Positions 25,781 through 50,992 of a stretch of DNA of 64,000 bases are shown piece by piece (position 1 is the first letter of the stretch; each line of letters begins with the position of its first letter). Under the pieces are notes generated by a model. That model saw only the letters and a list, made by a program, of their open reading frames with translations. It had not been told where the DNA came from and ran no database searches. The position numbers were made by a program, and so were the translations under genes. Source of the DNA: a virus; the IMG/VR virus record IMGVR_UViG_3300009448_000011, positions 32,001 through 96,000 of that record; one strand, given 5' to 3'.

Positions 25781-25810
25781 TTGACATACTAAGTTATGGT
25801 ATGTTATACT
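25781..25810 (+). promoter_or_regulatory. Sigma70-type promoter of cassette copy 1
   Basis: TTGACA-N18-TATACT with TG extended -10. Confidence 0.75.
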
Positions 25811-25834
25811 TTAAAAAAGGAAAAAGAGAATAGA

Positions 25835-26419
25835 ATGAATTTAGAAACTTGTCAAAACTTAAGCTTGATAATAGAAAAAGACCAAACAATTGAAGTAATT
25901 GAAATTTGGGCAAAAGTATTATATATAAGAAGAAGCAAAGGAAGAAATTCATTTTATTCGAAGAAAGGAATAACAAAAGAAACAGAAGGAATATTTTGTA
26001 ATAACTTAAAAGTTTCAGAAAATTATAAAAGCCTTTTTAAAAAATACCACCCCGATTTAAACAAAGGAAAAGAAAGTTATGTTGACATTTCAAAAAACAT
26101 TAATAGATGGAAAAACTTATTACTTGAGAGTGGACAAAGAGAGTTTGATCAACAATTATATACAGAGCTTATTGAGTTTTGTGGACCACTCACATCCATT
26201 TTCACTATTGGAACCAGAGCAAGTTTTATCGCAAAACAAACGTGCGGATCTATCAACATCCCTCAATTTAGTTCTGAACAGGAATTTGTTGAGTGGAAAG
26301 CAGCGCCAAAGCAAGTTGCTTCCAGGCAAGCGTTCCTTGATAGCCAACTTACTAGAGCTCAAATCATCAAAAAGTACGGTAAATCCTACTATGATTATGA
26401 AAGAGATCTTCCTTTTTAA
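25835..26419 (+). CDS. Cassette copy 1 ORF A (J-domain-like HPD protein)
   Basis: Start moved to the ATG at 25835 by alignment with the other copies; YKSLFKKYHPDLNKG; ends ERDLPF. Confidence 0.75.
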   Translation: MNLETCQNLSLIIEKDQTIEVIEIWAKVLYIRRSKGRNSFYSKKGITKETEGIFCNNLKVSENYKSLFKKYHPDLNKGKESYVDISKNINRWKNLLLESGQREFDQQLYTELIEFCGPLTSIFTIGTRASFIAKQTCGSINIPQFSSEQEFVEWKAAPKQVASRQAFLDSQLTRAQIIKKYGKSYYDYERDLPF

Positions 26420-26825
26420 TCCTGACCAGGACACTATAATACGTCCTTACGGATTAGAAAAAAATCAAATGTATAGTAATTATATGCCAACGGGCAAAGA
26501 AAGCAAAAATTATTTAAGGAGTTACATTAATAAAGCAGAATCTTTAGGGATCAAAGTCAAAGCTTTCAATTTTAACATTTGCGGTCCTGTTGTCACACAA
26601 GAAGCTATTGAATTCGCCAATTACATGAATATTGCAATTAAAGAATTAAATGGAGTGAAAATACAAATCAATGTATTCACTTTGGAACAATTAATCAAAG
26701 AATTAATGACAAATATAAATGGAAACAAATGGTTCATCACTTCGCAAGTTCCAAGTATATGCTGGGGAAAAGATCAGGTACAATATTTAATTTCAGAAAA
26801 AAAAGCTATATTAACAGAAAGTTAA
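26079..26825 (+). CDS. Cassette copy 1 ORF B (PD-(D/E)xK endonuclease), +1 frame overlap
   Basis: KRADLST...LLELK; homologous to three other copies. Confidence 0.75.
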   Translation: MLTFQKTLIDGKTYYLRVDKESLINNYIQSLLSFVDHSHPFSLLEPEQVLSQNKRADLSTSLNLVLNRNLLSGKQRQSKLLPGKRSLIANLLELKSSKSTVNPTMIMKEIFLFNPDQDTIIRPYGLEKNQMYSNYMPTGKESKNYLRSYINKAESLGIKVKAFNFNICGPVVTQEAIEFANYMNIAIKELNGVKIQINVFTLEQLIKELMTNINGNKWFITSQVPSICWGKDQVQYLISEKKAILTES

Positions 26826-27383
26826 CGTTCTGATTCATCTATTCCTTCAGACTTATCAATTTTATTCATTTCGCCCCAAAGACCATCTAAATTTTCTTCA
26901 TCAGAACCCTCATTGTTCTGATGATTCTTTTTTTTTCTCAACCTTACTAAAGTCTTCAGTTACAGTATTAAAAATTTTAATAATAGCTTGTTTTTCTTGT
27001 AGAAACTTCATTAAGGCACTTGTTAGTGAAGTATTACATTCACTAACAACATGCATAGAATATTCAAGATAAAGATCATCAGGGTTCAAAGAACTAAGAG
27101 AAAGAATACCTTCAAGACCAGGCTGAACACTCATAATAATATTAATCAAAAAATCGGGGCTTATAAAAAGAGGAACTTCTATAGGCAAAACAATACGAAT
27201 TAAATGATTAGATAAAGGATAAATTTGAGAAAAACCGTACGAAGTTTCTCCTTCAATTAACCACCCTTTATCTTCTAAAAATTTAACATTACAAAATTCT
27301 AAATATTGAAATAATATTTTATTATTACGAATAGAAAGCATATATTCGTAAGGATTAAAATTAGGATTAGGAGTAGAAAGCAT
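26822..27383 (-). CDS. Hypothetical protein, probably frameshifted at an A9 run
   Basis: ORF 26910..27383; removing one A at 26928-26936 extends it with an acidic tail to a TAA at 26822-26824. Confidence 0.45.
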
Positions 27384-27406
27384 ATATTCGTAAGGATTAA
27401 AATTAG
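27332..27406. repeat. 33-bp direct repeat (42-bp period)
   Basis: tagaaagcatatattcgtaaggattaaaattag at 27332 and 27374. Confidence 0.85.
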
Positions 27407-27422
27407 TTTTAAAAAAATTGAC

Positions 27423-28993
27423 TTTTTGTTATTTTGATTTACCTAAAATAGCAGAATGCCCCCATCAGAACGGTACTCCGTTTGGTGGCGGGATGAATGC
27501 GAGTGAGGCGACGATTGCCTGTCCTCCTTCCGAGATCTACCGATTGTCGGGATTGTCGGACAGGCATAAGGAGACGAACAAATTCATTGCTTATTCAATG
27601 TTTTATCTGAGTTTTTCTGGATAAAATTATGCTATCATAGTTTCATGATAGTTAGAGAAGCCAAGCTAAAATACGGTACAGCAGAGCAATATTCTGCCAT
27701 TGATAAAGCCATCCGAACAGCACAGTTCATTCGGAACAAAGCCGTTCGCTATTGGATGGACAATCAAGGTACGAGTAAAGCCGATCTGTACAGTATCTGC
27801 AAAGACTTGGCTAAAGAGTTTGACTTTGCTAAAAAGCTTAACTCCGCTGCTCGTCAGGCTAGTGCTGAACGTGCTTGGGTTGCTATCTCTAGCTTCTACA
27901 CCCGATGCAAAAAGCGGCTCACTCCAGTTGGGTCTCCCAACCATGGAAGTAAGACAAAACAAGGCGTAGGCAAGAAAGGTTTTCCAAAGTTTAAGAAACA
28001 TTGTCGTTCTGTTGAGTATAAGGTTTCAGGATGGAAACTATCGAAAGATTGCAAATCGATCGCATTCACTGATGGTTTTGAGATTGGAACATTATCGATA
28101 TTTTGCAACAATGAAACTCAAGAAGACTTGCATAGGCTGAAAATTAATCGTGTGCGGATCGTGCGGAGAGCAGACGGGTATTATGCCCAATTCTGTTTTG
28201 ATGCAGATCGTAAAGAGCAAGGGGAATATTCAGGCAATGTTGTCGGATTGGATTTAGGGTTGAAGTTTTTCACCAAAGACCAAAACGATAATGCTGTAAT
28301 ATATCCACAGTTCTTGAGAAAGGCCCAGATGCAACTCAAGAAAACTCAACGTCGATTAAGCAAGAAATTTGTGAAGGGTGCCAAACCCCAATCAAACAAC
28401 TACCACAAGGCGCAAAAACAACTAGGAAGAATTCATCTCAAAATTCAACGCCAGCGAAAAGATTGGGCGATAAAAGCCGCCCGAAACGTAGTGATATCTA
28501 ACGATGTCGTGGTGTATGAAAATTTGAAGATTGCGAACATGGTCAAAAATCATCATTTGGCTAAGTCAATTTCCGATGCTGGTTGGTATCAATACACTCA
28601 ATGGCTGGACTACTATGGCAAGATTTGGGATAAAGCAGTTGTGGCAGTATCGCCAAACTATACGTCTCAAGATTGCTCTAATTGCGGTCATCGAGTGAAA
28701 AAGTCTCTTAGTACCAGAACGCACTCATGCCCCAACTGCAAAATTGAAATTTGTCGCGATACGAATGCGGCTTTGAATATCTTGCACAAGGGATTGAACA
28801 TTCTTGGTGTTGAGTGGGACAAAAACAGTACTTCTGGGCAAGAAGGATCTGCCTCTGAGAATGAGGGAAAGCGCGGGGAGAGATGTACCTCTACAGTCGA
28901 TGAGTAATTAAAGACTGCAAGTAATTCTCTGTGAACCGCGAATAAGAATCCCCCGCTATATCGGTACTTCGATTAGCGGCGGGAGTATGTCAA
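27423..28993 (+). mobile_element. IS200/IS605-family (IS1341-like, tnpB only) element
   Basis: Higher GC; related subterminal hairpins gaatgcccccatcagaacggtactccgtttggtggcggg and gaatcccccgctatatcggtacttcgattagcggcggg; right end ...gtatgTCAA; left boundary approximate (TTGAC at 27418 or TTGAT at 27434). Confidence 0.8.
27645..28907 (+). CDS. tnpB: TnpB RNA-guided endonuclease
   Basis: RuvC GLDLG, VVYENL, RDTNAA; zinc ribbon CSNC...CPNC. Confidence 0.95.
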   Translation: MIVREAKLKYGTAEQYSAIDKAIRTAQFIRNKAVRYWMDNQGTSKADLYSICKDLAKEFDFAKKLNSAARQASAERAWVAISSFYTRCKKRLTPVGSPNHGSKTKQGVGKKGFPKFKKHCRSVEYKVSGWKLSKDCKSIAFTDGFEIGTLSIFCNNETQEDLHRLKINRVRIVRRADGYYAQFCFDADRKEQGEYSGNVVGLDLGLKFFTKDQNDNAVIYPQFLRKAQMQLKKTQRRLSKKFVKGAKPQSNNYHKAQKQLGRIHLKIQRQRKDWAIKAARNVVISNDVVVYENLKIANMVKNHHLAKSISDAGWYQYTQWLDYYGKIWDKAVVAVSPNYTSQDCSNCGHRVKKSLSTRTHSCPNCKIEICRDTNAALNILHKGLNILGVEWDKNSTSGQEGSASENEGKRGERCTSTVDE

Positions 28994-29036
28994 AAAAAGT
29001 CAATGAAAAAAGTAAAAAAATTAATAGTTAAAAAAA

Positions 29037-29587: not shown

Positions 29588-32500
29588 TCATTTAGCGGCC
29601 CAACTAGTACCCAATTTACATTCTGCTTTAGAAGGAAAATCAGGCACTAATTTATGTAATAATTCATCCATTGCTTTTTTCATTCCTAATTCTTGTGCAG
29701 CAGCATATTCATAAGAAATATCTTGAAATTTATATTCAGGAATATAAACTTCCCCATCTTTTCTTACATTTACTACTTCACCTTGTCCAGGGATATAAGT
29801 AATACATTCATCATGAACTAAGCCTACGATATAGCCTGGAGAAGAATGTTGTTTATACTTAGTATTAAGCTGAGTAAAAAACTGATCGATATAATGTGCG
29901 GCGCGTTTTGTCATAATACTAGAAAGGCCTTGTATAATGGTATTACAACCTTTACGCATAGTAGCGCCATCATTTTCTATTCCGTGAGCATTACCTTCGC
30001 CAACGAAATAGCGTCTATTTGTTATAGGACATTGTACCCATTTTTGATATCTAGCCAAAGAACTAGTATTATCAATATAGACTTGCAATTCTGGAAATAA
30101 ATTAAAATAGTTTTTAAGAAGTTGTTCAGCAACCTTAATATCTATTTGAAGAGCGGTAGAAATTCTATTAGCACTTCCACCATAAATTACCTTAAACCCT
30201 AAATTTTCATCTAGGTTTGGACTATACCTTTTAATGTAATTATTTGACATACATTAAAACACCGTGTTATAATTAGTATAACAAAGAAACATTTTAGATA
30301 ATGGACATACAAACAGCGGCGAATTTACAAGAATTAATAGAACAAGATCCTTTAATAGAATTAATCGAAATATGGGATAAAGTTTTATACATAAGAAAAG
30401 TAAAAGGCCGAGGAAGGTTTCATACTAAAAAAAATATTACTTTGTTAAAAAGTGGAATATACATCAATACAAAATATATACTCCAAGAATACAAAAGACT
30501 TCAAAAAAAATATCACCCTGATTTAAACAAAGGAAAAAAAAATTATGTTGAAATTTCAAAAAGCATTAATCAATGGAAAGACTTATTATTTGAATGTGAC
30601 GAAAGAGAACTCAATAGAACAGTATATCAGTTACTTATTACAACATGTGGACCGCTCACATCCATTTTCAGCATTGGAAAATCAGCAGACTTTATTTGGG
30701 GGCAAGAGGCCGGATTTCTCCACATCCCTAGATTTAATTCTGAACAGGAATTCAAGGAATGGAAAATTCCCTTTAGGAATTGGGCGGAAAAACTCGATGA
30801 TTGCCGATTGCCTAGAAGTAAAAGGAAGTTCTCAGATGTTGAGCACTACGGAGTTAATGAAAGAGATCTTCCTTTTTGATGCAGCAGAAACTATTGTTCC
30901 TACTTATGATGTTTCTATGTCTGATTTTCAATCTCAATATTTTCCATTGGGGAAAGAAAGCAAGAATTATTTCAGAAGTTATGTGCAGGAAGCACTTAAT
31001 AGAGGCATCAAAGTGAAATCATTTACTTTTTGGTTTGCGGGCCCTCTAGTGTCTATTGAAGCCATCAAATTTTCTATTTATTGGAATCGCGTGATCAAAC
31101 AAATAGGTGGAATTCAAGTAGAAATCAAAGTTTTGTCTTTGGAACAATTAATTAATTACATCATTTCCAATATTCCAACAAAAAAATGGTATGTATTAAA
31201 TCAACATCCTTCTGTTTGTATGAGTAGAGCGCAGGTTGAAGCTCTAATAGAAGCTCAACTAGCCATTTTAGTATAATCTTTTAATATCTAATTATCTTTA
31301 AGTCGCCTTGTACATTAATGTATTTAGGCGTTTTTTATTATGTATTCTTAAAAGTCTCTGAACCATTTTATAAACTTTCATTTATAGCTGGCTGCTGATT
31401 GACATATAGTATTTTTTAAACTACTTAGTGTTCCAGCAATTGAGTGTTTTTTACTTCACCATAATTTACAATTTAGTGAAGCCGCAGACTTTACCACGGT
31501 CTCTTCTTGTCCATCCATTCATATCTTTTTTAGCTTCTTTAATAACATTCCATTTAGGAACAGTAGCTAATTCAGGGTACATTCCAATAGCCGAAACTAC
31601 ATGAAGATCCCCGTCAGGATTAGGATATGTTTCTTTTGTATGTGGATTAATAAGAAAGGGATTATGCACTTCGGCATCGAAAAACGCATTAATCATTCTC
31701 TCTATTTTTGCTATACAAGCAATAGCTCTTACTTCTTGCAATATAGTTTTATTCTATACTGGCACTACTCTTCACCATCTCTATTAAGTACAGGTGTTTT
31801 ACGTCAGTGCTCTACTCTTGCCCAATTAATATAATAGAATAATAGTTCTAATTAATTTGCTAGATCGGGATTAGTTTACTATCACTTTCCCCGAATTGGT
31901 AAAATATTTTTTATACTATTTCTAATATAAACGACCCTTTTTTATTGTATTTATTTGTTTGACATTCAGCCATATAAGAGATACAATAAAAAAAAGACAA
32001 AAAACAAATAAGGTATGGATGCTCAAACTTGTAGAAACCTACAAACATTAATTGATAAAGATAATAATATTGAACTCATAGAAATATGGGCCAAGGTACT
32101 TTATCTAAGAATGAAAAAAGGAAAAAACAAGTTTTGCAGTAAAAAAGGAATAACTAATTTAAGCTCAGGAATTTATTTAAACTTAACTAACTTTAAAAAT
32201 GAATACACAAAATTGCAACGAAAATATCACCCAGACAAAAATGCAAAACATTTTGAAATTTCAAAAGGTATTAATCAATGGAAAGCATTTATATTTGAAT
32301 GTGACAAACGAGAACTTAATAGAACAGAACTTAATACATTACTTGAATCATGTCCCCCCAACACATCCTTATTCTCTCTTAGAGAACCAGCAAGTTATTT
32401 ACAACAACAAGAGACCGGACTTTTCAACCACCTTGACGACATTGCCAGGCACTATTGGGCCACTGTTACGCCTAAGCAAAGAGCTGAGGCAGAAGCTAGG

Positions 32501-33147
32501 GAAGAAGAATGGCTTGCTCGTCGATGTGGTAGAAACAAAGATGGAAGTAAATACGTCGACCCTTATGAAGGAACTTGTCCCTTTTAAAGAAGATGCACAA
32601 CAATTTGTTGATTCATCTTTTAGAAAGGAACAATTTACTTTTAATGCAGAACGCGTTGTCAATTATAAATGTTACATAAGCAATTATGTGAAAGCTGTTC
32701 AACAAAAAAAAGGTAAAGTAAAACAAATTACTTTTGCTTTTGTAGCTCCAAAAATAACAGTAGATGCATATGAATTGGCGTGGATTTTAACACATAGTCC
32801 AATTTACAATAATATTGGTGGCGTTAAAATCATAGTAGAATTATATACATTAGAAGCTTTTATCGAAAAACTGATTAATATAATCCCAGCCAATAAATGG
32901 TTCATTAAAAGTTCAATTCCTTTTAATTGTGTAAATGGGAGAGATGTAGATCTTCTAGTTAAAGAAAATAGAGCTATTATTATTTAATTTATTTATTTTT
33001 TATCTTTAGTAATAAACTCAGTATATAGGTGTATACTGAGTTTCAATTTATATTTAGTTAAGCCGAGTAATCACTAATACCCACACACATACCTTTAGGC
33101 GCCGCACCTAAAGCTTTTCTTACCGTTGTTGTAATTTCATATGACAT
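29588..33147 (-). CDS. polA: Family-A DNA polymerase, C-terminal (palm/fingers) half; 3 exons 33147-33061, 31738-31475, 30190-29588 (317 aa)
   Basis: Splicing restores motif A DYSA|QEVR and motif B RDRGKVCGFT|VIYGG; motif C VHDE; NTIIQG. Confidence 0.9.
30244..30273 (+). promoter_or_regulatory. Sigma70-type promoter of cassette copy 2
   Basis: TTGACA-N18-TATAAT with TG extension, overlapping intron P3/P8 on the opposite strand. Confidence 0.8.
30301..30879 (+). CDS. Cassette copy 2 ORF A (J-domain-like)
   Basis: YKRLQKKYHPDLNKG; ends ERDLPF. Confidence 0.75.
   Translation: MDIQTAANLQELIEQDPLIELIEIWDKVLYIRKVKGRGRFHTKKNITLLKSGIYINTKYILQEYKRLQKKYHPDLNKGKKNYVEISKSINQWKDLLFECDERELNRTVYQLLITTCGPLTSIFSIGKSADFIWGQEAGFLHIPRFNSEQEFKEWKIPFRNWAEKLDDCRLPRSKRKFSDVEHYGVNERDLPF
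30545..31276 (+). CDS. Cassette copy 2 ORF B (PD-(D/E)xK endonuclease)
   Basis: KRPDFST...CLEVK. Confidence 0.75.
   Translation: MLKFQKALINGKTYYLNVTKENSIEQYISYLLQHVDRSHPFSALENQQTLFGGKRPDFSTSLDLILNRNSRNGKFPLGIGRKNSMIADCLEVKGSSQMLSTTELMKEIFLFDAAETIVPTYDVSMSDFQSQYFPLGKESKNYFRSYVQEALNRGIKVKSFTFWFAGPLVSIEAIKFSIYWNRVIKQIGGIQVEIKVLSLEQLINYIISNIPTKKWYVLNQHPSVCMSRAQVEALIEAQLAILV
31304..31336 (+). terminator. Intrinsic terminator after copy 2
   Basis: CGCCT...AGGCG followed by TTTTTT. Confidence 0.7.
31959..31987 (+). promoter_or_regulatory. Sigma70-type promoter of cassette copy 3
   Basis: TTGACA-N17-TACAAT. Confidence 0.75.
32015..32587 (+). CDS. Cassette copy 3 ORF A (J-domain-like)
   Basis: YTKLQRKYHPDKN; ends EGTCPF. 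Confidence 0.75.
   Translation: MDAQTCRNLQTLIDKDNNIELIEIWAKVLYLRMKKGKNKFCSKKGITNLSSGIYLNLTNFKNEYTKLQRKYHPDKNAKHFEISKGINQWKAFIFECDKRELNRTELNTLLESCPPNTSLFSLREPASYLQQQETGLFNHLDDIARHYWATVTPKQRAEAEAREEEWLARRCGRNKDGSKYVDPYEGTCPF
32199..32987 (+). CDS. Cassette copy 3 ORF B (PD-(D/E)xK endonuclease)
   Basis: KRPDFST...VVETK. Confidence 0.75.
   Translation: MNTQNCNENITQTKMQNILKFQKVLINGKHLYLNVTNENLIEQNLIHYLNHVPPTHPYSLLENQQVIYNNKRPDFSTTLTTLPGTIGPLLRLSKELRQKLGKKNGLLVDVVETKMEVNTSTLMKELVPFKEDAQQFVDSSFRKEQFTFNAERVVNYKCYISNYVKAVQQKKGKVKQITFAFVAPKITVDAYELAWILTHSPIYNNIGGVKIIVELYTLEAFIEKLINIIPANKWFIKSSIPFNCVNGRDVDLLVKENRAIII
33014..33043 (+). terminator. Hairpin after copy 3 (terminator candidate)
   Basis: aaactcagtata/tatactgagttt 12-bp inverted repeat. 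Confidence 0.55.
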
Positions 33148-33209
33148 ATTTAATTTTAAATTTGGTTTAATTAATGAAAAAGAATAAATAGCAATAGAAT
33201 TAAAATATT

Positions 33210-33563
33210 TTAAACAATATTATGTTTCAACAAAACAAGAATGATTTGTTTAATAATATCGCCATGACAATCATTAGGTTTGCACCAACAAGCAAGTTTA
33301 AAATCTACCCCTTTTTTTTCTAATTGAGCTAAGCGAATCAATTCATCATAAACAGAGCCTTTTTTCAAAGAATACATTTGAAGAATCCAGGCCTTATAGA
33401 GCTGTAGACTTTCTGCAAGAGTTCTATTATGTCTAACTGCATAAGGATTATTTAAAGGGCTAGCTTTTAAATTGTAATAAGCATTTTTACGGCCAATGTA
33501 GATAATATCTTCGCCAACAAATCCGTCTTTTTTCCCATTGATAATGTGCATAGAGTTGTTCAA
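33210..33563 (-). CDS. DUF4326-like protein
   Basis: IYIGR...SPLNNPY...LACWCKPNDCHGDII. Confidence 0.8.
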   Translation of the reverse strand: MNNSMHIINGKKDGFVGEDIIYIGRKNAYYNLKASPLNNPYAVRHNRTLAESLQLYKAWILQMYSLKKGSVYDELIRLAQLEKKGVDFKLACWCKPNDCHGDIIKQIILVLLKHNIV

Positions 33564-33570
33564 TTAAATA

Positions 33571-43165: not shown

Positions 43166-43176
43166 TTTCAACTTCA

Positions 43177-45543
43177 TTAAAACATTTTGTGAAGATTTAA
43201 TTTGTGTTCCATTAAATTAATATAAAATAAAAAATCTTTTTCTTCTATACTAATTTCCGATTGAAAATAATTTTTAACACGGTAGTATTTAAGAAAAGGA
43301 AGTTTAGTTAAATAATCCTGACATTCATTATATATATATATACATTCTTTTTGTATTTTTAAGGGTACTTTAAGGTCAACAAAAAGTTCATTATATCCTT
43401 TTTGTTGTAAACTTTTCTTCATTAATTGTAAATCATTATTAATTAATAAAGCATAGCTTTCTAATTCTTTATTGTTATTTAAATATTTTAGTGCTCCCTG
43501 ATATTGATTATTTAAGTAACCAAATAAACTATTTTTTTCAGACAAGTTTTTATAATTAAAAAGAAGAAAAACTTCTTGATGATTTTGGAAGTAATAGTAA
43601 ATAAAAAGATTTAGGCCTAAGAGATTTAAATTAGATTGATGAATTAAATAATCTTGTTTAATAACGTCTAACAAATTAACCCAATTAGAGCTAGTGAAAT
43701 TCTTAGTTAAAGTAGGGATATAGTAAATATTAGATATAGAAATTTTTTTATAAATTAAATAGTTATTTAATCTTTCTATAAAATTTTGGATAACTTCTGG
43801 ATATCTAGTAGTAATACCTAAATTTAGAAAAGGCACTAAATTCTGGGATAATTCTTCTTCATTTAAAAAATAACAAGTGCGAAGGGGAGCTTTTAACACT
43901 TTTATTTCTTTACACCACGCGCCTAAACCTCGAGCTCTTTCTCTTTGTTTAGTTTTGTGTAATTGTAATATAGTAAATACATTTGTATTAGAAGGTTTTT
44001 TTTTAACAAAAGGATTATCTTCATTAAATTCTTTAATAATATTAGATAAATATACTGTATCTAAAGTTCTAAGAATCCATGGTTGTACTTTATCTAAATC
44101 TACAGAAGAAACACAAATAAAATTAGTGTCACTTAATTGTTCCCTATTTTTTTGGATATAAGCTTTTAAATATTTTTTATAATTATTATATTTACTATCT
44201 TGTACACATAATATATACTTATTTTTTCCTGTATAAATAGTACTAGTTTGTATTTTATTTAATACATCAATTTCTTTAGATTTTAATTTAGACCAGGATT
44301 TATCTAATTTATAGACTTTAAAAGTATCAGGGAGTTCTTTTTCGATAAAAATAGCATAAAACTTATCAAAAGAAAGGTTTTCAGGTTGCCAAGTTAATAA
44401 ACTTAAAAATTTTGTACGTAATATATTAGGATAATTTACATAAGAAATAGTTGCGGAAATAAAGTCAGGGTTATGAATTAAATCAATACGCAAATATTTA
44501 TAAAATTCTATAAAAAAAAGATATAAATATTGATAAAGTTCTAAGCAAGTTTTTTTAGTATATTGTAAATTTTCTCTAGAGGCAGAAATATCTAAAGTAC
44601 CTATAGGGACGTTAATCTCAAAAGAATACAAACATAAAACGTCAATAAATGTAAAAAACAACTCAGTATTTTTTAGATTGTCTATGTAATAAGGACAATT
44701 AGTAGTTATATAATATAAAACTTCGGGTGTAATATTACTAAAAGAACTTTTTAATAATTCTAAATCTAATTTATAAGGAATATCATATATAACGACTACG
44801 TGTTTACAACCGTGTTTAGCTTCCCAATAATTAGTATCTACTAATAATAACGACCATAGTTTACCAAAATAGTTATAAGTATTTGTTTTTAAAGTTAAAC
44901 GAGCTTCTAAAGTTTTATTTAAAAAATTAAACTTACTTTTAGTATATGTTAAATACAAAGATAAGCTTTTGAAAATATGAGTTAAATCTTTTGTATTAAA
45001 AGGAACACTAACTTTTGTTCCAGGTAAAAACTCAATAATATTACTATCATTTTCTTCTAATAAAGTTAAAGAGCCTACCCGAGACTCATCAATATATTGA
45101 ACCCATTTTCTATAAATATTTATATTATTTTCTACAGTATAAGTTTCAATCCAAAAATGATCAGAATAAGCTAAAGCAGATTTACTACCTAAGCCCCAAC
45201 CACCTTGAAGATTATTATCTTCTCTTTTATCAGATTTTCCCATTTTAGAATACACATTAAAAATAATATCTTTATCCATAGAGTGGCCATAATCTCTTAT
45301 AGAAAAGATATTAGACCCAAAGAGATATTCAATATTAATATCTATGGGAAGATCTATGTTAGCTTTTGTATGCGCGTCTACTGCATTGCTATAGAGTTCT
45401 CGTACAAAAGAAGAAATAGGATCTGTATAAATATTATTCCTCAATAAATTCATAATAGTTGAGGTATTTTCTAAATCTAGACTCATTTGTGTAGAAAGTT
45501 TCCCTTCAAAATGTCTAGACGTATTAACATTATTTAATTTCAT
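43177..45543 (-). CDS. rIIA-like protein (GHKL/Hsp90-type ATPase N-terminus)
   Basis: IYTDPI..VRELYSNAVDAH, IRDYG, GGWGLGSKS. Confidence 0.75.
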   Translation of the reverse strand: MKLNNVNTSRHFEGKLSTQMSLDLENTSTIMNLLRNNIYTDPISSFVRELYSNAVDAHTKANIDLPIDINIEYLFGSNIFSIRDYGHSMDKDIIFNVYSKMGKSDKREDNNLQGGWGLGSKSALAYSDHFWIETYTVENNINIYRKWVQYIDESRVGSLTLLEENDSNIIEFLPGTKVSVPFNTKDLTHIFKSLSLYLTYTKSKFNFLNKTLEARLTLKTNTYNYFGKLWSLLLVDTNYWEAKHGCKHVVVIYDIPYKLDLELLKSSFSNITPEVLYYITTNCPYYIDNLKNTELFFTFIDVLCLYSFEINVPIGTLDISASRENLQYTKKTCLELYQYLYLFFIEFYKYLRIDLIHNPDFISATISYVNYPNILRTKFLSLLTWQPENLSFDKFYAIFIEKELPDTFKVYKLDKSWSKLKSKEIDVLNKIQTSTIYTGKNKYILCVQDSKYNNYKKYLKAYIQKNREQLSDTNFICVSSVDLDKVQPWILRTLDTVYLSNIIKEFNEDNPFVKKKPSNTNVFTILQLHKTKQRERARGLGAWCKEIKVLKAPLRTCYFLNEEELSQNLVPFLNLGITTRYPEVIQNFIERLNNYLIYKKISISNIYYIPTLTKNFTSSNWVNLLDVIKQDYLIHQSNLNLLGLNLFIYYYFQNHQEVFLLFNYKNLSEKNSLFGYLNNQYQGALKYLNNNKELESYALLINNDLQLMKKSLQQKGYNELFVDLKVPLKIQKECIYIYNECQDYLTKLPFLKYYRVKNYFQSEISIEEKDFLFYINLMEHKLNLHKMF

Positions 45544-45599
45544 TTGTAAAATTTGTTAAAAATATTAAAGAAGGTTTCAATACGACCTTCCTTAATAAT

Positions 45600-47972
45600 T
45601 TAAGTTTTAATAATATATAGTGCTTTACCGGCAGTTTTAGGAACTTCCACTGTTGTATTAATGACCCACAATAAATTAGTATTTTTAATTTGGGAAGCAG
45701 TAGGAAAAACACAATAACCATCTGAAGCAATAATGCTTAAAATAGGGGTATATTTTTTAATACCGTAAAGTAGAGGAGTTACCATATCAGTGCCCCCACC
45801 ACCTTCAGCGCGAATCCACCCGTTTTTAATTTTATCTAAAAAGTTAGCGCCATCAGCTTTAACAATATATTCACTACGAACTTTTGTATCTGCAAAAATC
45901 AAAGCAATTTCTACATTAGTTTGTGTTTGAACATTTTGTATTTCTGTACAAAACATAGTTAATTCTTCTTCATTAAAACAAGAACCACTAGTATCTATTA
46001 TTACTAACATTTTATCTAGACCCTTTTTATTTAAAAGACCAGGCATATAAACATTAGGGTTAGGTAAAGAGCCCATTCTTCTTGCAGGTTTACTCCACGT
46101 TTGTTCTAAAACAGGCATACACCTTTTAATTAAATATTTACGTAATTCTACATGCCAAGAAATTTGAGGTTTATAAACATCAGGATTAACTTTACCTAAT
46201 ATAGAATTGTTAGAATTAAGTGATTGAGCTTTAGCCCTATTATATCTTTGTGTCCATTGAAAATCATCTATTTGTGAAGAAGTAGAATCTTCTTTATTGG
46301 CTTCTTTTATATCATCGCCTGCAAATAATGTATGTTTGCTTGCTAATTTTTTAGATAATTCTTCTACTTCTTTTTCTAATTTTTCTAATACACTTTCTTC
46401 ATTATTAGAAGAATCAGGAGGTTTTTTACTATTATTAGCCTTGCCCCCTTTTTTTTTATTTTGGGACTTTGACTGATTTTCTACTTGTTTTTGTAAATTA
46501 TCTCGTAATGTTTTAATTAAATATTCATATAAACTTTCTGAGGTCCAGTGACTAAAATGTTTTCTTTCACTTTGCGCAATATTACACTCAGAATATATAC
46601 TCTCTAAATTAACTACTTCTTTTTTATTTAAATATAAATAGGAGGGTGATCCTACTTTTTGTTCATCTTTAAATCCAATACTTTCATTTATAATTGCATC
46701 ACAATTATGAGTCACTACATTACTTGCAAGATATATGTGCGTTTCAGTTTCAATGTTATACACTAATCCTTCATAATATTGCTTAGAAATATGTTTAATA
46801 GGAGTTAATATATAATCCTTAGTAGTTTTCCATATTTGACTATTATTTACATTTCTAGAAGATTTAGTAGTTTTAATATATGACAGTAAATAGCCACTTT
46901 CTACATAATCAATAGTTAAAAATTTATTATGTTTTGCAAATAATAATTGTAATTGTCTAGCTAATAAATTTGAAGATGTCCACGCAGTTAATTTATTTTT
47001 ATTTCGGTGCCCTTCCCCATCAAAATAACCTTTAATAAAACTAGCAGTTAAATTATTAGGTAAATCTAAAAGCCAATTCGGCAATTCTGTTTTTTCTTTT
47101 ATTAAAATTGAATTACAAATAGATACAATATAATAATAGTAGGAAAGAAAAGTAGAAGAAATTAAGGCTAAAGAATTAAAATAAGATGAGATTCGATTAT
47201 TTGGAATTAAATCAAAAGAACCTTTAGCCAGAAAATAGCCTATGGAATATAATAAATCATTTGTAAGGAGAAAGTTAGAAGGAAAAGGAGGGAGAATAGG
47301 AGGAATTAAAGAAGAATGAAGTTTAGGGATACATAAATAATCTTGAGTAATATTTAACTCTTGTGCTGTTTTCCAACTATAATTAATTTGGTTATTAGAG
47401 TTAAAGTTAGCAACGTAAAAAGGATGATCTTGGGTAGCTTCAATATTCAAACAACCAGTGGGTTTAATAGTATACATATCATCTTGATATATATTTTCCA
47501 TAGTGTTTGTAATAGTGCCGCCAACTAAAGTGGTATCGCCTATGATTAAATCTTCTATATTCTTGAAACCTTCTAAGGTAAGAATAGGTTCTCCTGGTTT
47601 AAAACAAGCAATATTATATAAATTGCTAATTCTTTTTTTACCACGTATACAATGTCTAAATACAATATGAAGCATTTCATGAATAATAACTGCACATTGT
47701 ACAGGAATTTCTAATGAAAAAAATCTATCAGCAAAAAACATTTCATCGCCATTAGTATAAGCCACCTGTTCAAAATAAGGGTGAGAATCAGGGACTACAG
47801 AACTAGGAACAAAAGTCAATAAGCCTTGTAGAGAATTATCTTCACATATAATACGAGCTCTTAAATTATGTAAAATCCTAATTTTTTTATCATAAGAAAT
47901 ATTAGAAGGAGGAAAACTATCTGCTAATTTTTCATCAGACATAGAAAATAAAGAAGTTTCAATCATAGTCAA
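45600..47972 (-). CDS. HExxH metallopeptidase-vWA protein (DUF2201-like) containing an intein
   Basis: HEMLH, NIA|CDAIIN after intein removal, DTSGS MIDAS, GGGGTD, SDG. Confidence 0.85.
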   Translation of the reverse strand: MTMIETSLFSMSDEKLADSFPPSNISYDKKIRILHNLRARIICEDNSLQGLLTFVPSSVVPDSHPYFEQVAYTNGDEMFFADRFFSLEIPVQCAVIIHEMLHIVFRHCIRGKKRISNLYNIACFKPGEPILTLEGFKNIEDLIIGDTTLVGGTITNTMENIYQDDMYTIKPTGCLNIEATQDHPFYVANFNSNNQINYSWKTAQELNITQDYLCIPKLHSSLIPPILPPFPSNFLLTNDLLYSIGYFLAKGSFDLIPNNRISSYFNSLALISSTFLSYYYYIVSICNSILIKEKTELPNWLLDLPNNLTASFIKGYFDGEGHRNKNKLTAWTSSNLLARQLQLLFAKHNKFLTIDYVESGYLLSYIKTTKSSRNVNNSQIWKTTKDYILTPIKHISKQYYEGLVYNIETETHIYLASNVVTHNCDAIINESIGFKDEQKVGSPSYLYLNKKEVVNLESIYSECNIAQSERKHFSHWTSESLYEYLIKTLRDNLQKQVENQSKSQNKKKGGKANNSKKPPDSSNNEESVLEKLEKEVEELSKKLASKHTLFAGDDIKEANKEDSTSSQIDDFQWTQRYNRAKAQSLNSNNSILGKVNPDVYKPQISWHVELRKYLIKRCMPVLEQTWSKPARRMGSLPNPNVYMPGLLNKKGLDKMLVIIDTSGSCFNEEELTMFCTEIQNVQTQTNVEIALIFADTKVRSEYIVKADGANFLDKIKNGWIRAEGGGGTDMVTPLLYGIKKYTPILSIIASDGYCVFPTASQIKNTNLLWVINTTVEVPKTAGKALYIIKT
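46704..47606 (-). mobile_element. Intein (301 aa) with LAGLIDADG-type domain
   Basis: Starts CFKPG, ATQDHPF, FIKGYFDGEG, ends VTHN|C. Confidence 0.9.
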
Positions 47973-48372
47973 TTCCTAATAATTCTGTTAAAGCAAACTG
48001 AGCATCAAATAATTGAATAGTGTTAGGTCTACTAAACTCAAATAAATATTGTTGAAATACGCCTAAAGATTTTTCATAATATTTTTCAACAATAGCATTT
48101 ACAATAAGTTTTTCATCAAATAAAAAAGTAATTTCTTGGTATTGAGCTGCGGTGCCTAAATAGACAGTAAATCTAATAGTAGGATCTACTACATCAACTC
48201 CCTGACTATTTTGATAAGTAGGAAAAAATATCAAAACAGCAAATTTTACTATATCTTCGTGTGTAAAATTACGAGAAGATAGAATTTCATACCCTCGATT
48301 AGTAAAACTATAGTAAGCCAATAATTCTGCTATTACTTTTAATTTGTTTTTATATTCTAAGTTTTTTGTCAC
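47959..48372 (-). CDS. Hypothetical protein in the MoxR-vWA operon
   Basis: 137 aa ORF. Confidence 0.5.
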   Translation of the reverse strand: MTKNLEYKNKLKVIAELLAYYSFTNRGYEILSSRNFTHEDIVKFAVLIFFPTYQNSQGVDVVDPTIRFTVYLGTAAQYQEITFLFDEKLIVNAIVEKYYEKSLGVFQQYLFEFSRPNTIQLFDAQFALTELLGIDYD

Positions 48373-48402
48373 GGGGAGTTTCTCCTTATATAATTTTAAA
48401 AA

Positions 48403-50992
48403 TTAAACAGATATTAAATCACTAAAAGCTTGCATATGTTCTTTGCGCATTGCTTTATATGCCTCAGACTTACCAATTTTGTAGGGTAGTTTTTTATTAT
48501 CTATTTTTTGTGCTTTACTAAATAGAGTAATCACACTTGTCACTAAAATTTCTTTACGAGGTAAATTATCTTCAATACTTCCTAATACATTAAATACATA
48601 ACATGCCGCTATAAATTCTTCTTCTGTTTTACAATACGACGGTAATGAATAACTTAATCCATATAAACCAGTTATTTTAGTAGGAAGAATATTTTTAATT
48701 AAGCGATCATCTTGGAGGACACCTAGACGAATATATTCAGACATAGGGGCAAGGCTAGCTAATTCTTCAATAACAAAAAAGAATTCATGAGCAGTAGCGG
48801 CGCCTAAAAGACCTGGTAAAATAATTTTTAATTGTTGTTCATCAGTAATTTTCTCCATAATATTGGAACATTTTTCCCATGAACGGCTAGAAGGATTAAT
48901 TTTATCATCATTATCTGCGACTGATTTAAAACCTTCGTCAAGAAATTCAGGACGAGCTCTTAAAAAAGCTTTAATAGAAGGAATAATAGGGCGGCCGTTT
49001 TCTGCGCGATGGGCTTCCCATTTTAACCAAGCATTTACAGAAGTCATTACGTCAAAATGAATAAAACGATCTGAGATAGCACTAGATAACTCATAGGCTA
49101 TAGCACCATCTTCTACTCTATTTCCTGCTGCAATAATCATTACATTATCAGGAACTTTATATTTATCAATTTTTCTATCTAATATTAATTCGTACATTAA
49201 TATACCTTTAATTTTCATTAAAGAACGGAATACATTTTAATCTTTACTATATTTATATAGTATTAAGACTTGGACACTCTAGGTAAAATTATAGTCTGTT
49301 TAACTTAAGACATCATTTACTACTCTCTACATTATTATTAAACATTACTTTAATAATTAACACGGGATTACCTTATAGTTTCCTACTTAGGTTTCCCCGT
49401 TAGCCTAATCTCTATTTGTTCTTTTTTGATTAAACCCTATTGACTTATTAAAACCAATACATTATAATATATTTAAATACACACACATTTACAAATAAGA
49501 AATTCAAGTGGACATACAAAGTTGTAAAAATCTTCAAGCATTAATTGATAAAGACAATAATATTGAACTCATAGAAATATGGGCTAATATATTGTATTTA
49601 AGAATGCGAAAAGGAAAAAACAAATTTTGTAGTAAAAAAAGAATAACTAATTTAAAAGAAGGTGTTTATTTAAATATCTATACTTTTTCTAAAAATGAAT
49701 ACAAACAATTACAGCAAAAATATCACCCTGACACCAGCTCAAAATATTTACACATTTCAAAAAGTCTTAATCAATGGAAAGATTTATTATCTAGATGTGA
49801 CTACAGAGTCCAAAATAGAAGCATATATCTTGACATTGCTGCAACATATTCCAACAACCCATCCATATTCTCTATTGAAAAATCAATTAGAATATTCAGT
49901 ATGGCAAAAGAGGCCCGACTTTTCGACGGACTACTCGAGGATACCGCAGAGTGGGCAGAAGGATGTGATGAAGCCTGGCTCGCTCAACAAAGAGCTGAGA
50001 GCCAATCTAGGTGGAAAGAATGGTCTAACTGGCAACGTGGTCGAGATAAAGAAGGAAATAAAATTAGAGACACTTATGACGGAACTCTTCCTTTTTAATA
50101 CAGAAGAAGAAGTATTTCTTGCTCCTCTCGGTAAAACTCACGATCAATTTCTAAAAGAAAATCCTATAGAAACTTCTTCATCTAAAATGTATATACTTGC
50201 CACTAAACTTCATGCACAAAAATTAGGATTTAAACTAAAAAGATTAAATATGACTTTTGTGGCGCCTCTTGTTTCTAACAAAGCATTACAATATGAACAA
50301 TATCATAACAAAGCTATTAAAAATATAGGAGGAATTGCAGTAGATTTAAAAGTATTTACCTTAGAACAATTCATTAATGAATTATTTACTTTAATTCCCG
50401 ACAGTAAATGGTACATAAAAGATAATCATATTCCTTTTATCGCCTTGTCAAAATCTAAAGTAGAAATATTACAAGAAAATAATTTAGCCGTTATAATGTA
50501 ATCATATTCATTTTTATTTAAATCTCTCTTATTGTGTTATTGCTTTAAGAGAGATTTTTATTTGGTACGCAATAGTTTGCCCAGTTTTACTTATATATTT
50601 CTATATAAGGTGCCTACGAATATTTAAGCACTTGCTTGTAAACGCGGTTCAGCCGCACTTAATTCATCTAGAAAAATAATACAACCTTCTTTACCCCAAC
50701 TAGCAATCATTTCTTCTGTTGGTAAAAATTCAGGTAAATAATAAATAGTTTTTTTACTTTCTTGATGTAGATAAGGAAGTCCTGTTAAATCAGTACTATC
50801 CATTCTAGTAAGTCTTAAATCAATTAGCCCCCAATTTAATTCTGTAGCTATTTGTCTTACAATATCAGATTTACCACAACCAGGTTGTCCATGTATATAT
50901 ACAGCATTTTTACGTAAGTCTGTATCTTTTGCCATTGTTAAAATACAATTTTTAATTAAATCAGGCGTAGTGGGAATAGTATTAATTGTCAT
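48403..50992 (-). CDS. MoxR-type AAA+ ATPase; 2 exons 50992-50627 and 49194-48403 (385 aa)
   Basis: GQPGCGKS, DLTGLP, FLDELSAA, QASA|YELILDR after splicing, AAGN, DRF. Confidence 0.9.
49440..49468 (+). promoter_or_regulatory. Sigma70-type promoter of cassette copy 4
   Basis: TTGACT-N17-TATAAT. Confidence 0.75.
49508..50098 (+). CDS. Cassette copy 4 ORF A (J-domain-like)
   Basis: YKQLQQKYHPD; ends DGTLPF; GTG start. Confidence 0.75.
   Translation: MDIQSCKNLQALIDKDNNIELIEIWANILYLRMRKGKNKFCSKKRITNLKEGVYLNIYTFSKNEYKQLQQKYHPDTSSKYLHISKSLNQWKDLLSRCDYRVQNRSIYLDIAATYSNNPSIFSIEKSIRIFSMAKEARLFDGLLEDTAEWAEGCDEAWLAQQRAESQSRWKEWSNWQRGRDKEGNKIRDTYDGTLPF
49695..50501 (+). CDS. Cassette copy 4 ORF B (PD-(D/E)xK endonuclease)
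   Basis: KRPDFST...VVEIK. Confidence 0.75.
   Translation: MNTNNYSKNITLTPAQNIYTFQKVLINGKIYYLDVTTESKIEAYILTLLQHIPTTHPYSLLKNQLEYSVWQKRPDFSTDYSRIPQSGQKDVMKPGSLNKELRANLGGKNGLTGNVVEIKKEIKLETLMTELFLFNTEEEVFLAPLGKTHDQFLKENPIETSSSKMYILATKLHAQKLGFKLKRLNMTFVAPLVSNKALQYEQYHNKAIKNIGGIAVDLKVFTLEQFINELFTLIPDSKWYIKDNHIPFIALSKSKVEILQENNLAVIM
50520..50563 (+). terminator. Hairpin and T-tract after copy 4
   Basis: aaatctctctta/taagagagattt followed by ttattt. Confidence 0.6.

What the first reader, a model, noticed from the sequence alone, without database searches (positions are those of the whole stretch)
25781..50563. Four-copy antisense two-frame cassette (promoter, J-like ORF A, overlapping nuclease ORF B): candidate new mobile system
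Seen in the sequence: four diverged but homologous ~1 kb units at 25781-26825, 30244-31336, 31959-33043 and 49440-50563. All lie on the + strand within minus-strand operons. Each has a near-consensus sigma70 promoter, ORF A (190-196 aa), and ORF B (243-268 aa) in the +1 frame overlapping A by 341, 335, 389 and 404 nt. Both frames stay open and keep conserved residues across the overlap (A: ISK.(I/L)N.WK and terminal PF; B: FQK.LI.GK, HP(F/Y)S.LE and RPDFST-type motifs). That is unlikely by chance in DNA this AT-rich. Three copies sit inside group I introns and one is free-standing. Inference: a self-contained selfish module, either a homing endonuclease with an overprinted regulator or chaperone, or a toxin-antitoxin-like unit that protects introns from loss. 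I know of no described intron-borne element with this architecture.
Basis: partly seen in the sequence, partly recalled or inferred. Interest (0 to 1): 0.95.

Follow-up and report, generated by a model that had tools for sequence, protein, structure and literature searches.

The report
Two-frame nuclease/J-protein cassette in phage introns
A phage carries four diverged copies of a small self-contained gene cassette, three lying backwards inside self-splicing introns, in which about 110-135 codons of DNA are read in two frames to make a likely DNA-cutting enzyme and a chaperone-recruiting partner, an architecture I could not find described for any mobile nuclease gene.

Summary
Four paralogous + strand units lie among minus-strand genes of a 105.7-kb viral contig. 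Each has a near-consensus sigma70 promoter; these are four of only five matches of at least 11/12 in the window. Each also has ORF A (190-196 aa), ORF B (243-268 aa) in the +1 frame overlapping A by 335-404 nt, and a hairpin/T-run.

Both frames have no stops in the overlap. The third frame has 15-18, and each frame has 6-15 stops where it is not coding. Codon resampling expects 11-12 stops in A and 4-7 in B. An independent metagenomic pair of proteins fits one DNA across a 120-codon overlap.

A is a J-domain-like protein with HPD invariant in 20/20 homologues. B is a new sequence family with a PD-(D/E)xK nuclease fold and conserved E..D..ExK residues that lie inside the overlap.

Three units sit antisense in group I introns of the family A DNA polymerase (motifs A and B) and of an AAA ATPase. 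One is free-standing.

Most likely this is a homing-endonuclease-type mobile cassette with an obligate J-domain partner. Cleavage, expression, splicing and A's role are untested. First-stage notes on this same genome said much the same; the scan has no note of it on other DNA.

The parts
25781..25810 (+). Unit 1 promoter (TTGACA-18-TATACT, TG before the -10)
25835..26419 (+). Unit 1 ORF A (194 aa, J-domain-like; the ATG at 25796 lies inside the promoter)
26079..26825 (+). Unit 1 ORF B (248 aa, PD-(D/E)xK-type), +1 frame, 341-nt overlap with A
26898..26924 (+). Unit 1 terminator-like hairpin followed by a T-run
30244..30273 (+). Unit 2 promoter (12/12 consensus, TG-extended)
30301..30879 (+). 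Unit 2 ORF A (192 aa)
30545..31276 (+). Unit 2 ORF B (243 aa), 335-nt overlap; AAAGGA lies 11-16 nt upstream of its ATG
31300..31337 (+). Unit 2 hairpin plus T-run after B (approximate coordinates, read by eye)
31959..31987 (+). Unit 3 promoter (TTGACA-17-TACAAT)
32015..32587 (+). Unit 3 ORF A (190 aa)
32199..32987 (+). Unit 3 ORF B (262 aa; a second possible start at 32241), 389-nt overlap
33014..33043 (+). Unit 3 terminator-like hairpin
49440..49468 (+). Unit 4 promoter (TTGACT-17-TATAAT)
49508..50098 (+). Unit 4 ORF A (196 aa, GTG start)
49695..50501 (+). Unit 4 ORF B (268 aa), 404-nt overlap
50523..50563 (+). Unit 4 hairpin plus T-run after B (approximate coordinates, read by eye; not found by the scan)
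30191..31474 (-). Inferred group I intron in polA motif B (junction GFT|VIYGG); unit 2 lies between the R-like and S-like elements
   Evidence: Sequence read. phrog_17 profile continues 1070|1071 across the gap. Taq alignment. No Rfam hit.
31739..33060 (-). Inferred group I intron in polA motif A (junction DYSA|QEVR); unit 3 lies upstream of the P/Q-like core
   Evidence: Sequence read. The 28-position gap in phrog_17 matches the 29-aa mini-exon at 33061-33147. No Rfam hit.
49195..50626 (-). Inferred group I intron in an AAA ATPase gene, between Walker B and the rest of the domain; unit 4 lies upstream of the core
   Evidence: phrog_1297 profile continues 119|119 across the gap. Weak Intron_gpI hit at 49324-49400 on the minus strand, 16 bits, E 0.081. 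Sequence read.

Best explanation
Each unit is a self-contained mobile transcription unit: a host-type sigma70 promoter, two genes and a terminator. It encodes a homing-type PD-(D/E)xK endonuclease (B) and an obligately linked J-domain-like partner (A). The two genes share 110-135 codons read in two frames. In the first ~45-60 shared codons both products are folded and under amino-acid constraint: J-domain helices III-IV in A, and the N-terminal hairpin and first core helix in B. In the remaining ~70 codons B's catalytic core (D57, E91, K93) is the constrained reading. There A's frame encodes a charged, probably disordered tail that is kept stop-free up to a conserved C-terminal Pro-Phe/Trp. 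Inferred steps are as follows. Host RNA polymerase transcribes the cassette early. B cuts cassette-free alleles of the polymerase or ATPase genes, or of the intergenic site, in co-infecting relatives, and recombinational repair copies in the cassette together with its intron. A assists through its HPD J-domain, for example by recruiting DnaK to fold, activate or release B, or by controlling B. The cassette has moved independently of any single intron, because it occupies different positions in three introns and one intron-free site. Shown here: anatomy, dual-frame maintenance, folds and context. Inferred: cleavage, homing, A's role, and translation of both frames.
For: Dual coding: stop counts were 0/0 in the overlap against 15-18 in the third frame and 6-15 in the flanks. 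Codon resampling gave P<2e-4 per copy for A and 0-0.0026 for B. Synonymous sites of A are more conserved in the overlap (0.76 against 0.60). Synonymous sites of B are more conserved only in the first part (0.70 against 0.54-0.58). The outside pair P0003 (B, 253 aa) and P0033 (A, 185 aa) fit one DNA at 117 of 120 overlap codons, while shuffles give runs of at most 7. Eighteen outside A homologues are 169-210 aa, and 16 of them end in P-F/W (or PFL). B's ~140-aa database versions begin 7-20 codons before A's stop. This is what a gene caller that caps same-strand overlaps at about 60 nt would produce; that such a cap applied is my own inference. B as a nuclease: AlphaFold pLDDT 79.7 and pTM 0.75. 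The top VIA matches are nearly all PD-(D/E)xK nucleases: N.BspD6I Z 7.2, NucS 6.8, AF1548 6.4, Can2 6.3, R.BspD6I small subunit 6.3, FokI 6.2. Weak Foldseek hits are of the same kind. E21, D57, E91 and K93 are invariant in the six full-length sequences. A as a J-domain protein: the 40 PDB profile hits at E up to 1 are essentially all J-domain proteins, best 1.5e-5. HPD is invariant in 20/20. J-domains top the fold search, Z 5.3 and 5.2. Mobile-element context: profile continuity across the three inserts, canonical U...G boundaries and P/Q/R/S-like elements, one free-standing copy, five A copies on one 282-kb contig, and four of the five strongest sigma70 matches in the window.
Against: There are no expression, cleavage or splicing data. 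No Pfam, PHROG, NCBIfam, PADLOC or PDB sequence match exists for B, and the fold Z-scores are middling (at most 7.2), a range the tool warns is common. B has no recognisable separate DNA-binding domain. A's DnaJ score is below Pfam's cut-off (24.4 against 27.8), and a canonical helix I is not evident. No J-domain partner is known for any homing endonuclease. Rfam does not call the introns, apart from one 16-bit hit. A's tail shows no amino-acid-level constraint on B's synonymous sites (0.42 against 0.59 expected), so its product may matter only weakly. No cassette-free or intron-free alleles were available to show mobility.
Confidence: 0.6

Rival explanations
1. The pair is a toxin-antitoxin-like, addiction or (anti-)defence module. 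B would be a non-specific or conditionally active nuclease held in check by A, and its residence in introns would be incidental or would stabilise the introns, rather than serving site-specific homing.
For: It is a tightly linked two-gene unit with a strong constitutive-type promoter. The upstream gene overlaps the nuclease gene, so translation of A could gate B. PD-(D/E)xK effectors are common in defence systems, and Can2, Card1, SduA, Avs and NucC appear among the fold hits.
Against: No PADLOC family matches A or B, apart from one weak AAA-type hit to one A copy. Three of the four copies sit exactly at conserved-motif codons inside group I introns and the family is multi-copy and diverged; by my own knowledge this is the signature of homing endonuclease genes. 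J-domains are not known antitoxins.
Confidence: 0.15
2. A's long tail is not a functional peptide. The A frame would be kept open only for translational control, so that ribosomes on A occlude or regulate initiation of B and the nuclease stays scarce. The real proteins would then be a ~120-aa J-domain protein plus B.
For: The tail has low pLDDT (40-65) and low identity (0.28). It imposes no detectable constraint on B's synonymous sites.
Against: A stop soon after B's start would give the same occlusion. Instead the stop is held at one position after P-F/W in 20 of 22 sequences. In the pair P0036/P0014, A keeps an aromatic C-terminus (W) while B's otherwise conserved Phe becomes Gly. This points to selection on A's terminus.
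Confidence: 0.12
3. The overlap serves programmed +1 frameshifting. Ribosomes would slip on the U-run at A's end (CCU UUU UGA/UAA) or elsewhere, producing an A-B fusion protein, as in prfB or Listeria phage PSA.
For: B is in the +1 frame. All four copies end A with CC(T/C)-TTT-T(A/G)A, where tRNA-Phe could re-pair in +1. Unit 2 has an A9 run just before B's ATG.
Against: A frameshift needs only a few shared codons, not 110-135 open in both frames. A fusion at A's stop would omit B's catalytic half. Homologues ending in PW or PFL lack the U-run. The A-run is absent from units 3 and 4.
Confidence: 0.06
4. Only one frame is truly coding in the overlap, and the other is open by chance or composition.
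For: Database gene callers mostly reported only one long ORF per locus.
Against: Stop counts and resampling. Both frames are kept in an outside homologue. B's catalytic residues and A's J-domain helices III-IV both lie in the overlap. There is reciprocal synonymous-site constraint in the first part of the overlap.
Confidence: 0.04

Closest known systems
PD-(D/E)xK homing endonucleases (I-Ssp6803I, from a cyanobacterial tRNA group I intron; own knowledge)
   Same: An intron-borne small nuclease with a restriction-endonuclease-like fold and a D...(D/E)xK catalytic signature, and no separate DNA-binding domain.
   Different: No detectable sequence relation. B's nearest folds are the FokI and BspD6I type IIS cleavage domains and NucS. 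B is antisense to the intron, has its own promoter, and is always paired and overlapped with a J-domain-like gene.
Free-standing and intron-encoded phage homing endonuclease gene families (T4 seg/mob/I-Tev, PMC2988022; I-PfoP3I in the cyanophage Pf-WMP3 polymerase intron, PMC3428280)
   Same: A multi-copy diverged family within one phage. Copies occur both inside group I introns and between genes. Targets lie in conserved motifs of replication genes, including a family A DNA polymerase.
   Different: Those are single-gene GIY-YIG or HNH enzymes in the sense orientation. Here there are two overlapping genes, a different nuclease fold, antisense orientation and consensus sigma70 promoters.
Antisense homing endonuclease genes in nuclear rDNA group I introns (PMC9548176)
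   Same: The endonuclease gene lies on the strand opposite to the ribozyme and its host gene.
   Different: Those are eukaryotic His-Cys box enzymes expressed through Pol II signals. Here the setting is a phage, with bacterial promoters and a two-gene unit.
Out-of-frame or 'hidden' homing endonucleases (cyanobacterial dnaX intein, bioRxiv 10.64898/2026.09.14.751524; ShiLan/hidden HNH, PMC11855218)
   Same: A homing-type nuclease shares its DNA with a second reading frame that is kept open by selection.
   Different: There the second frame belongs to the host gene or intein. Here both overlapping frames belong to the mobile cassette itself, and the partner is a J-domain-like protein.
Embedded or overlapped phage gene pairs such as lambda Rz/Rz1 (own knowledge; reviews PMC8227390, PMC7017920)
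   Same: A same-strand +1 overlap of two functionally linked genes in a dsDNA phage.
   Different: Those are spanins, not a mobile nuclease cassette. Here both ancient folds (J-domain, PD-(D/E)xK) extend into the shared segment.
Phage and viral J-domain proteins (RB43 Rki, polyomavirus T antigens; own knowledge)
   Same: A small viral protein with an HPD J-domain presumed to engage host Hsp70.
   Different: None is known to be coupled to, or overlapped with, a nuclease gene or carried in an intron.

Membership tests
PD-(D/E)xK nuclease superfamily (ORF B) | Restriction-endonuclease-like alpha/beta core fold | tested here: met
   The model has pLDDT 79.7 and pTM 0.75. The VIA top rows are almost all PD-(D/E)xK nucleases, Z 5-7.2 over residues ~6-228, and the Foldseek top rows are of the same kind but E is at least 0.024. 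The Z-scores are middling, so support is moderate.
PD-(D/E)xK nuclease superfamily (ORF B) | Catalytic signature: an acidic residue in the first helix, D at the start of beta-2, and (D/E)xK in beta-3 | tested here: met
   E21, D57, E91 and K93 are invariant in the six full-length sequences. They sit on H23-32, E58-60 and E84-92 of the model. A residue-level superposition on a solved active site was not done.
PD-(D/E)xK nuclease superfamily (ORF B) | Match to a curated sequence family | tested here: not met
   No Pfam, PHROG, NCBIfam, PADLOC or PDB sequence hit. The Atlas gave only leads below 0.9 (MunI, PDDEXK_18).
Homing endonuclease gene (functional class) | Resides in a self-splicing intron or intein, or free-standing between conserved genes, at conserved target sequences | tested here: met
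   Three copies interrupt polA motifs A and B and an AAA ATPase at single profile positions. One copy is intergenic.
Homing endonuclease gene (functional class) | Site-specific cleavage of the cassette-free allele, and presence/absence polymorphism among relatives | not testable with these tools
J-domain (DnaJ, PF00226) (ORF A) | Invariant HPD tripeptide between helices II and III | tested here: met
   H72, P73 and D74 are invariant in 20/20 sequences.
J-domain (DnaJ, PF00226) (ORF A) | Score above Pfam's gathering cut-off | tested here: not met
   The best window copy scores 24.4 bits against 27.8 and 26.2. One outside homologue (P0025) carries a precomputed PF00226 hit. The family profile's 40 PDB hits at E up to 1 are essentially all J-domain proteins, best E 1.5e-5.
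J-domain (DnaJ, PF00226) (ORF A) | Four-helix J fold, including helix I | tested here: inconclusive
   Helices at 60-70, 80-98 and 106-116 match II, III and IV. J-domains top the fold list at Z 5.3 and 5.2. The place of helix I is taken by a helix-plus-four-strand N-terminal domain.
Group I intron (the three inserts) | Covariance-model match (Rfam RF00028) | tested here: not met
   Nothing at gathering score or at E up to 10 in 10 kb. Only a 16-bit hit, E 0.081, for the ATPase insert, and none for the motif A insert. The ~1.1-kb antisense cargo may hinder the model.
Group I intron (the three inserts) | Precise interruption of a coding sequence, with U before the 5' splice site, a terminal G, and P/Q/R/S core elements | tested here: met
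   Profile continuity: phrog_1297 119|119 and phrog_17 1070|1071, with a 28-position gap filled by the 29-aa mini-exon. Boundaries and core-like elements were read directly. Base-pairing was checked by eye only.
Group I intron (the three inserts) | Self-splicing | not testable with these tools
Long same-strand overlapping gene pair (dual coding) | Both frames kept open and both under purifying selection | tested here: met
   Openness. Reciprocal synonymous-site constraint holds in the first ~45-60 codons. In the remaining ~70 codons only B is constrained, together with openness of A. Formal overlapping-gene dN/dS was not possible because the paralogues are saturated and no outside DNA was available.
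Type II toxin-antitoxin pair | Match to known toxin or antitoxin families, and toxicity neutralised by the partner | tested here: inconclusive
   No family match. Toxicity is not testable here.

The most novel reading that the evidence does not exclude
A is an adaptor that couples the break made by B to host machinery through two handles. One is a J-domain for DnaK. The other is an overprinted, disordered tail ending in a mimic of the bacterial SSB C-terminal tip: A ends in ..D-(L/I)-P-F/W, compared with SSB-Ct DDDIPF (PMC5872125). Such a tip could recruit or compete for SSB-binding repair and restart proteins. The functional tail would have been created de novo by reading through the nuclease's catalytic core in another frame. 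That would make this a homing element that brings its own repair-recruitment factor.
Probability: 0.12. Interest if true: 0.9.

Novelty: new variant of a known kind. Interest (0 to 1): 0.74.

Why it matters
Homing endonuclease genes are regarded as minimal single-gene parasites. This family is seen only in a few viral and metagenomic contigs and is invisible to Pfam, PHROGs, NCBIfam and PADLOC. It would show a two-protein version in which a chaperone-recruiting partner is welded to the nuclease by more than 100 codons of dual coding. It is also a clean natural case in which two ancient folds (J-domain, PD-(D/E)xK) share sequence in different frames, replicated in four diverged paralogues. That makes it useful for studying how overlapping genes arise by mutual extension. 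It shows that gene callers systematically truncate such genes: B is stored as ~140 aa in most database entries. It adds phage examples of antisense cargo with consensus host promoters inside ribozymes of essential replication genes, which raises testable questions about transcription conflict and splicing. If B is site-specific, it is a new scaffold related to the FokI and BspD6I cleavage domains.

Tried and rejected
1. Rfam on the whole window at gathering score, and at E up to 10 on 25-35 kb and on the two intron cores. The only result was one 16-bit Intron_gpI hit.

2. Pfam, PHROGs, NCBIfam and PADLOC for A and B. Nothing for B, and sub-threshold DnaJ/HscB hits for A.

3. Outside DNA:
- blastn and tblastn against GenBank phages: no match.
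- The search for related loci in viral contigs, metagenome contigs and genome contigs: no confirmed locus.
- Alignment A3 was too diverged to make search patterns.
- Because of this, no codon-level test on outside homologues and no RNA evidence was possible.

5. B starting at the Met just before A's stop (a short 139-aa B): rejected. That Met is absent in P0003, P0004, P0010, P0011 and P0013, and the catalytic residues lie upstream of it.

6. A conserved slippery run for frameshifting at B's start: only unit 2 has the A9 run.

7. Host genes reading straight through the cassette on the minus strand: rejected, because the minus-strand frames of the overlap all carry 3-13 stops.

8. The phage's other J-domain ORF as parent of A: only 27 aligned columns around HPD.

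9. An SSB or Hsp70 gene in the record: none found in a record estimated 62% complete.

10. The pairing of P0004 with P0030 suggested by equal contig counts was not borne out.

11. Pairwise dN/dS between paralogues was not attempted. Synonymous sites are saturated: same-codon frequency equals the codon-usage expectation in the single-coding parts.

Full report
**Setting.** The window is bases 32001-96000 of a 105,687-base viral contig estimated 62% complete. GC content is about 27-30%. Genes around the finding run on the minus strand and form a T4-like replication and recombination block. This includes family A DNA polymerase pieces, a UvsX-like recombinase, DNA ligase, RIIA-like proteins and an AAA ATPase.

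**Observation.**
- The ORF listing reproduces the four pairs.
- The four B proteins are 37-49% identical to unit 2's B, and the four A proteins are 41-51% identical to unit 2's A.
- A whole-record search finds exactly these four copies.
- B is in the +1 frame of A in every copy, with overlaps of 341, 335, 389 and 404 nt.
- The promoters at 25781, 30244, 31959 and 49440 score 11-12 of 12.
- A scan of both strands of the whole window finds only five sites of at least 11/12, and four of them are these promoters. They are therefore a property of the cassette, not of the phage's own transcription signals.
- Unit 1's upstream ATG (25796) lies inside its promoter, so A there most likely starts at 25835 and is 194 aa.
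- A hairpin with a T-run follows each B.

**Is the double reading frame more than chance?**
- In the shared segment A and B have no stops, while the third frame has 15-18. Just outside it, the A frame has 8-15 stops in the B-only part and the B frame has 6-11 stops in the A-only part.
- I held B's protein fixed and redrew synonymous codons from the window's own usage. This gave 11-12 stops in the A frame, and A was open in 0 of 5000 trials for every copy. With A held fixed, B expects 4-7 stops and was open in 0-0.26% of trials.
- The paralogues are old enough that synonymous sites are randomised where only one frame codes. There, the same-codon frequency at identical residues is 0.60 for A and 0.54 for B, against 0.57-0.60 expected from codon usage. 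The four copies are therefore close to independent tests.
- I split the overlap at the conserved S(I/L)F motif. In the first part both genes' synonymous sites are over-conserved (A 0.81, B 0.70, against about 0.58). This means each frame's amino acids constrain the other.
- In the second part only A's synonymous sites are over-conserved (0.71). B's are not (0.42), and A's identity falls to 0.28. There B's protein is the constrained one, and A is kept open but otherwise free.

**Outside homologues.**
- The family is rare. A profile of B finds 18 representatives among 1.84 billion proteins, some of which are the window's own products. A profile of A finds 22 proteins, 18 of them from outside this contig. 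Five of those lie on one 282-kb ENA contig.
- No outside DNA could be fetched (see tried and rejected), so I tested overlap from the protein sequences alone.
- For each A/B pair I asked whether a single DNA could encode both in the +1 register. B's many ~140-aa database versions each begin 7-20 codons before the stop of a matching full-length A. That is what a gene caller which caps same-strand overlaps at about 60 nt would produce; that such a cap applied to these database calls is my own inference. The short B entries are therefore probably annotation artefacts.
- The full-length B P0003 (253 aa, JGI) and the A cluster P0033 (185 aa, JGI) are compatible at 117 of 120 overlap codons, with an unbroken run of 91. 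Shuffled controls reach runs of 5-7. At least one independent, diverged locus therefore keeps both full frames.
- Of the 20 aligned A sequences, 18 end in Pro-Phe, Pro-Trp or PFL at an aligned position.
- In the pair P0036/P0014, A ends in Trp while B's otherwise conserved Phe at that site is Gly. This suggests that A's aromatic C-terminus is itself selected.

**What A is.**
- Pfam DnaJ scores are just under the cut-off (best 24.4 against 27.8 bits).
- A profile of 20 homologues gives 40 PDB hits at E up to 1, essentially all J-domain proteins. The best E is 1.5e-5, covering helix II, HPD, helix III and the start of helix IV. His-Pro-Asp is invariant in 20/20.
- The AlphaFold model is confident (pLDDT above 90) for residues 1-100. 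It shows a helix plus four strands, then the J-type helices. The model falls to pLDDT 40-65 after about residue 125.
- J-domains head the structural list, at low Z of 5.3 and 5.2, and the Atlas structure rows.
- The tail is 24-36% charged.

**What B is.**
- B has no sequence-family match anywhere.
- The model has pLDDT 79.7 and pTM 0.75. It aligns best to PD-(D/E)xK nucleases: the N.BspD6I nickase catalytic domain (Z 7.2), NucS (6.8), AF1548 (6.4), Can2 (6.3), the R.BspD6I small subunit (6.3) and the FokI cleavage domain (6.2). Many restriction enzymes follow.
- Foldseek's weak top rows are of the same kind.
- E21, D57, E91 and K93 are invariant. They fall on the first core helix and on the two strands where the superfamily's catalytic residues sit. 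All four lie inside the overlap.
- The Z-scores are middling, so the fold assignment is moderately rather than strongly supported. The consistency of the hit list and the motif together make a nuclease the best reading.

**How the overlap is built.** The pLDDT profiles are complementary.
- B residues 1-20 have pLDDT about 50 where A's helix III has above 90.
- A residues 128-192 have pLDDT 40-65 where B's core has 85-92.
- This fits two once-adjacent genes that each extended into the other. A would have lost its stop and B would have gained an upstream start. Only a short stretch then holds both well-folded parts. This is inference.

**Context.**
- The ATPase fragments at 50624-50992 and 48403-49218 match one PHROG profile at positions 14-119 and 119-332.
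- The polymerase pieces match phrog_17 at 657-987, 1016-1070 and 1071-1232. The 28-position gap corresponds to a 29-aa mini-exon at 33061-33147.
- The junctions I read rejoin motif B (GFT|VIYGG), motif A (DYSA|QEVR) and the ATPase (QASA|YELI). Each has a U before the insert and a G at its end, and each has P-, Q-, R- and S-like elements on the minus strand.
- Rfam does not reach its threshold, and there is only one 16-bit hit on the correct strand. 'Group I intron' therefore rests on anatomy, not on the covariance model.
- The cassette lies between the R- and S-like elements in one intron and upstream of the core in the other two.
- Unit 1 has no room for a ribozyme, with about 85 and 95 nt of flank. 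The cassette therefore appears to move on its own.

**Mechanism and rivals.**
- The best reading (0.6) is a homing-type endonuclease cassette with an obligate J-domain partner. Host RNA polymerase would express it from consensus promoters.
- What A does is open. Options are chaperone recruitment for folding or product release, control of B, or an adaptor role.
- A's tip resembles the SSB C-terminal hexapeptide (PMC5872125). However, it overlaps a conserved helix of B, so the likeness may be a by-product. I rate the adaptor idea at 0.12.
- A toxin-antitoxin or defence reading (0.15), a purely regulatory open frame (0.12), +1 frameshifting at the U-run before A's stop (0.06) and a spurious frame (0.04) are less likely, for the reasons listed under rival explanations.

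**Comparison and novelty.**
- Each ingredient has precedents: PD-(D/E)xK homing endonucleases, phage homing endonuclease families that are both intron-borne and free-standing (PMC2988022, PMC3428280), antisense endonuclease genes in eukaryotic rDNA introns (PMC9548176), out-of-frame homing endonucleases (bioRxiv 10.64898/2026.09.14.751524; PMC11855218), and overlapped phage gene pairs.
- I found no description of a nuclease/J-domain pair, of a long overlap within the mobile cassette itself, or of this protein family. I class it as a new variant of a known kind.
- Other first-stage notes on this genome reached similar readings. A follow-up on another genome reported an antisense nuclease in a phage polymerase intron. 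These are leads, not evidence.

**Limits.** There are no expression, splicing or cleavage data and no outside DNA.

Noticed in passing
window 33061-34860 (-): Besides the two introns, the family A DNA polymerase is split into two translation units. The exonuclease/N-terminal part (33571-34860) ends with its own stop. A DUF4326 gene (33210-33563; Pfam 1.5e-13) follows. The polymerase then restarts with an ATG at 33147. The phrog_17 profile continues across the split (987 to 1016).
   Followed up: partly
window 27645-28907 (+): A 420-aa TnpB/IS605-type transposase-like ORF (phrog_506, 1.2e-81) lies on the + strand about 0.8 kb from the free-standing unit 1, inside a phage replication block.
   Followed up: no
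window 63451-63819 (-): A second, separate small J-domain ORF (122 aa). It passes Pfam's DnaJ cut-off (32.4 bits) and resembles ORF A only around HPD (hhalign over 27 columns). No Hsp70 or SSB gene was found in the record.
   Followed up: partly
window 48366-48394 (+): The only other sigma70 match of at least 11/12 in the window (TTGTCA-17-TATAAT). It is on the + strand within a minus-strand ORF (47959-48372), about 1 kb upstream of unit 4. Its purpose is unknown.
   Followed up: no
window 26410-26419, 30870-30879, 32578-32587, 50089-50098 (+): ORF A always ends CC(T/C)-TTT-T(A/G)A. This is a U-run followed by a stop on which tRNA-Phe could re-pair in the +1 (B) frame. It may simply reflect B's conserved Phe and A's Pro-Phe end.
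   Followed up: partly
window 45600-47972 (-): A 790-aa ORF whose C-terminal 320 residues match an HNH-endonuclease PHROG (phrog_1314, 2.6e-39). It lies next to an RIIA-like gene (43177-45543).
   Followed up: no
database proteins P0001, P0002, P0005-P0010, P0012-P0014: Public gene calls store ORF B mostly as ~140-aa C-terminal pieces that begin 7-20 codons before ORF A's stop. This looks like an artefact of gene callers limiting same-strand overlaps, and it hides the catalytic half of the nuclease from databases.
   Followed up: yes
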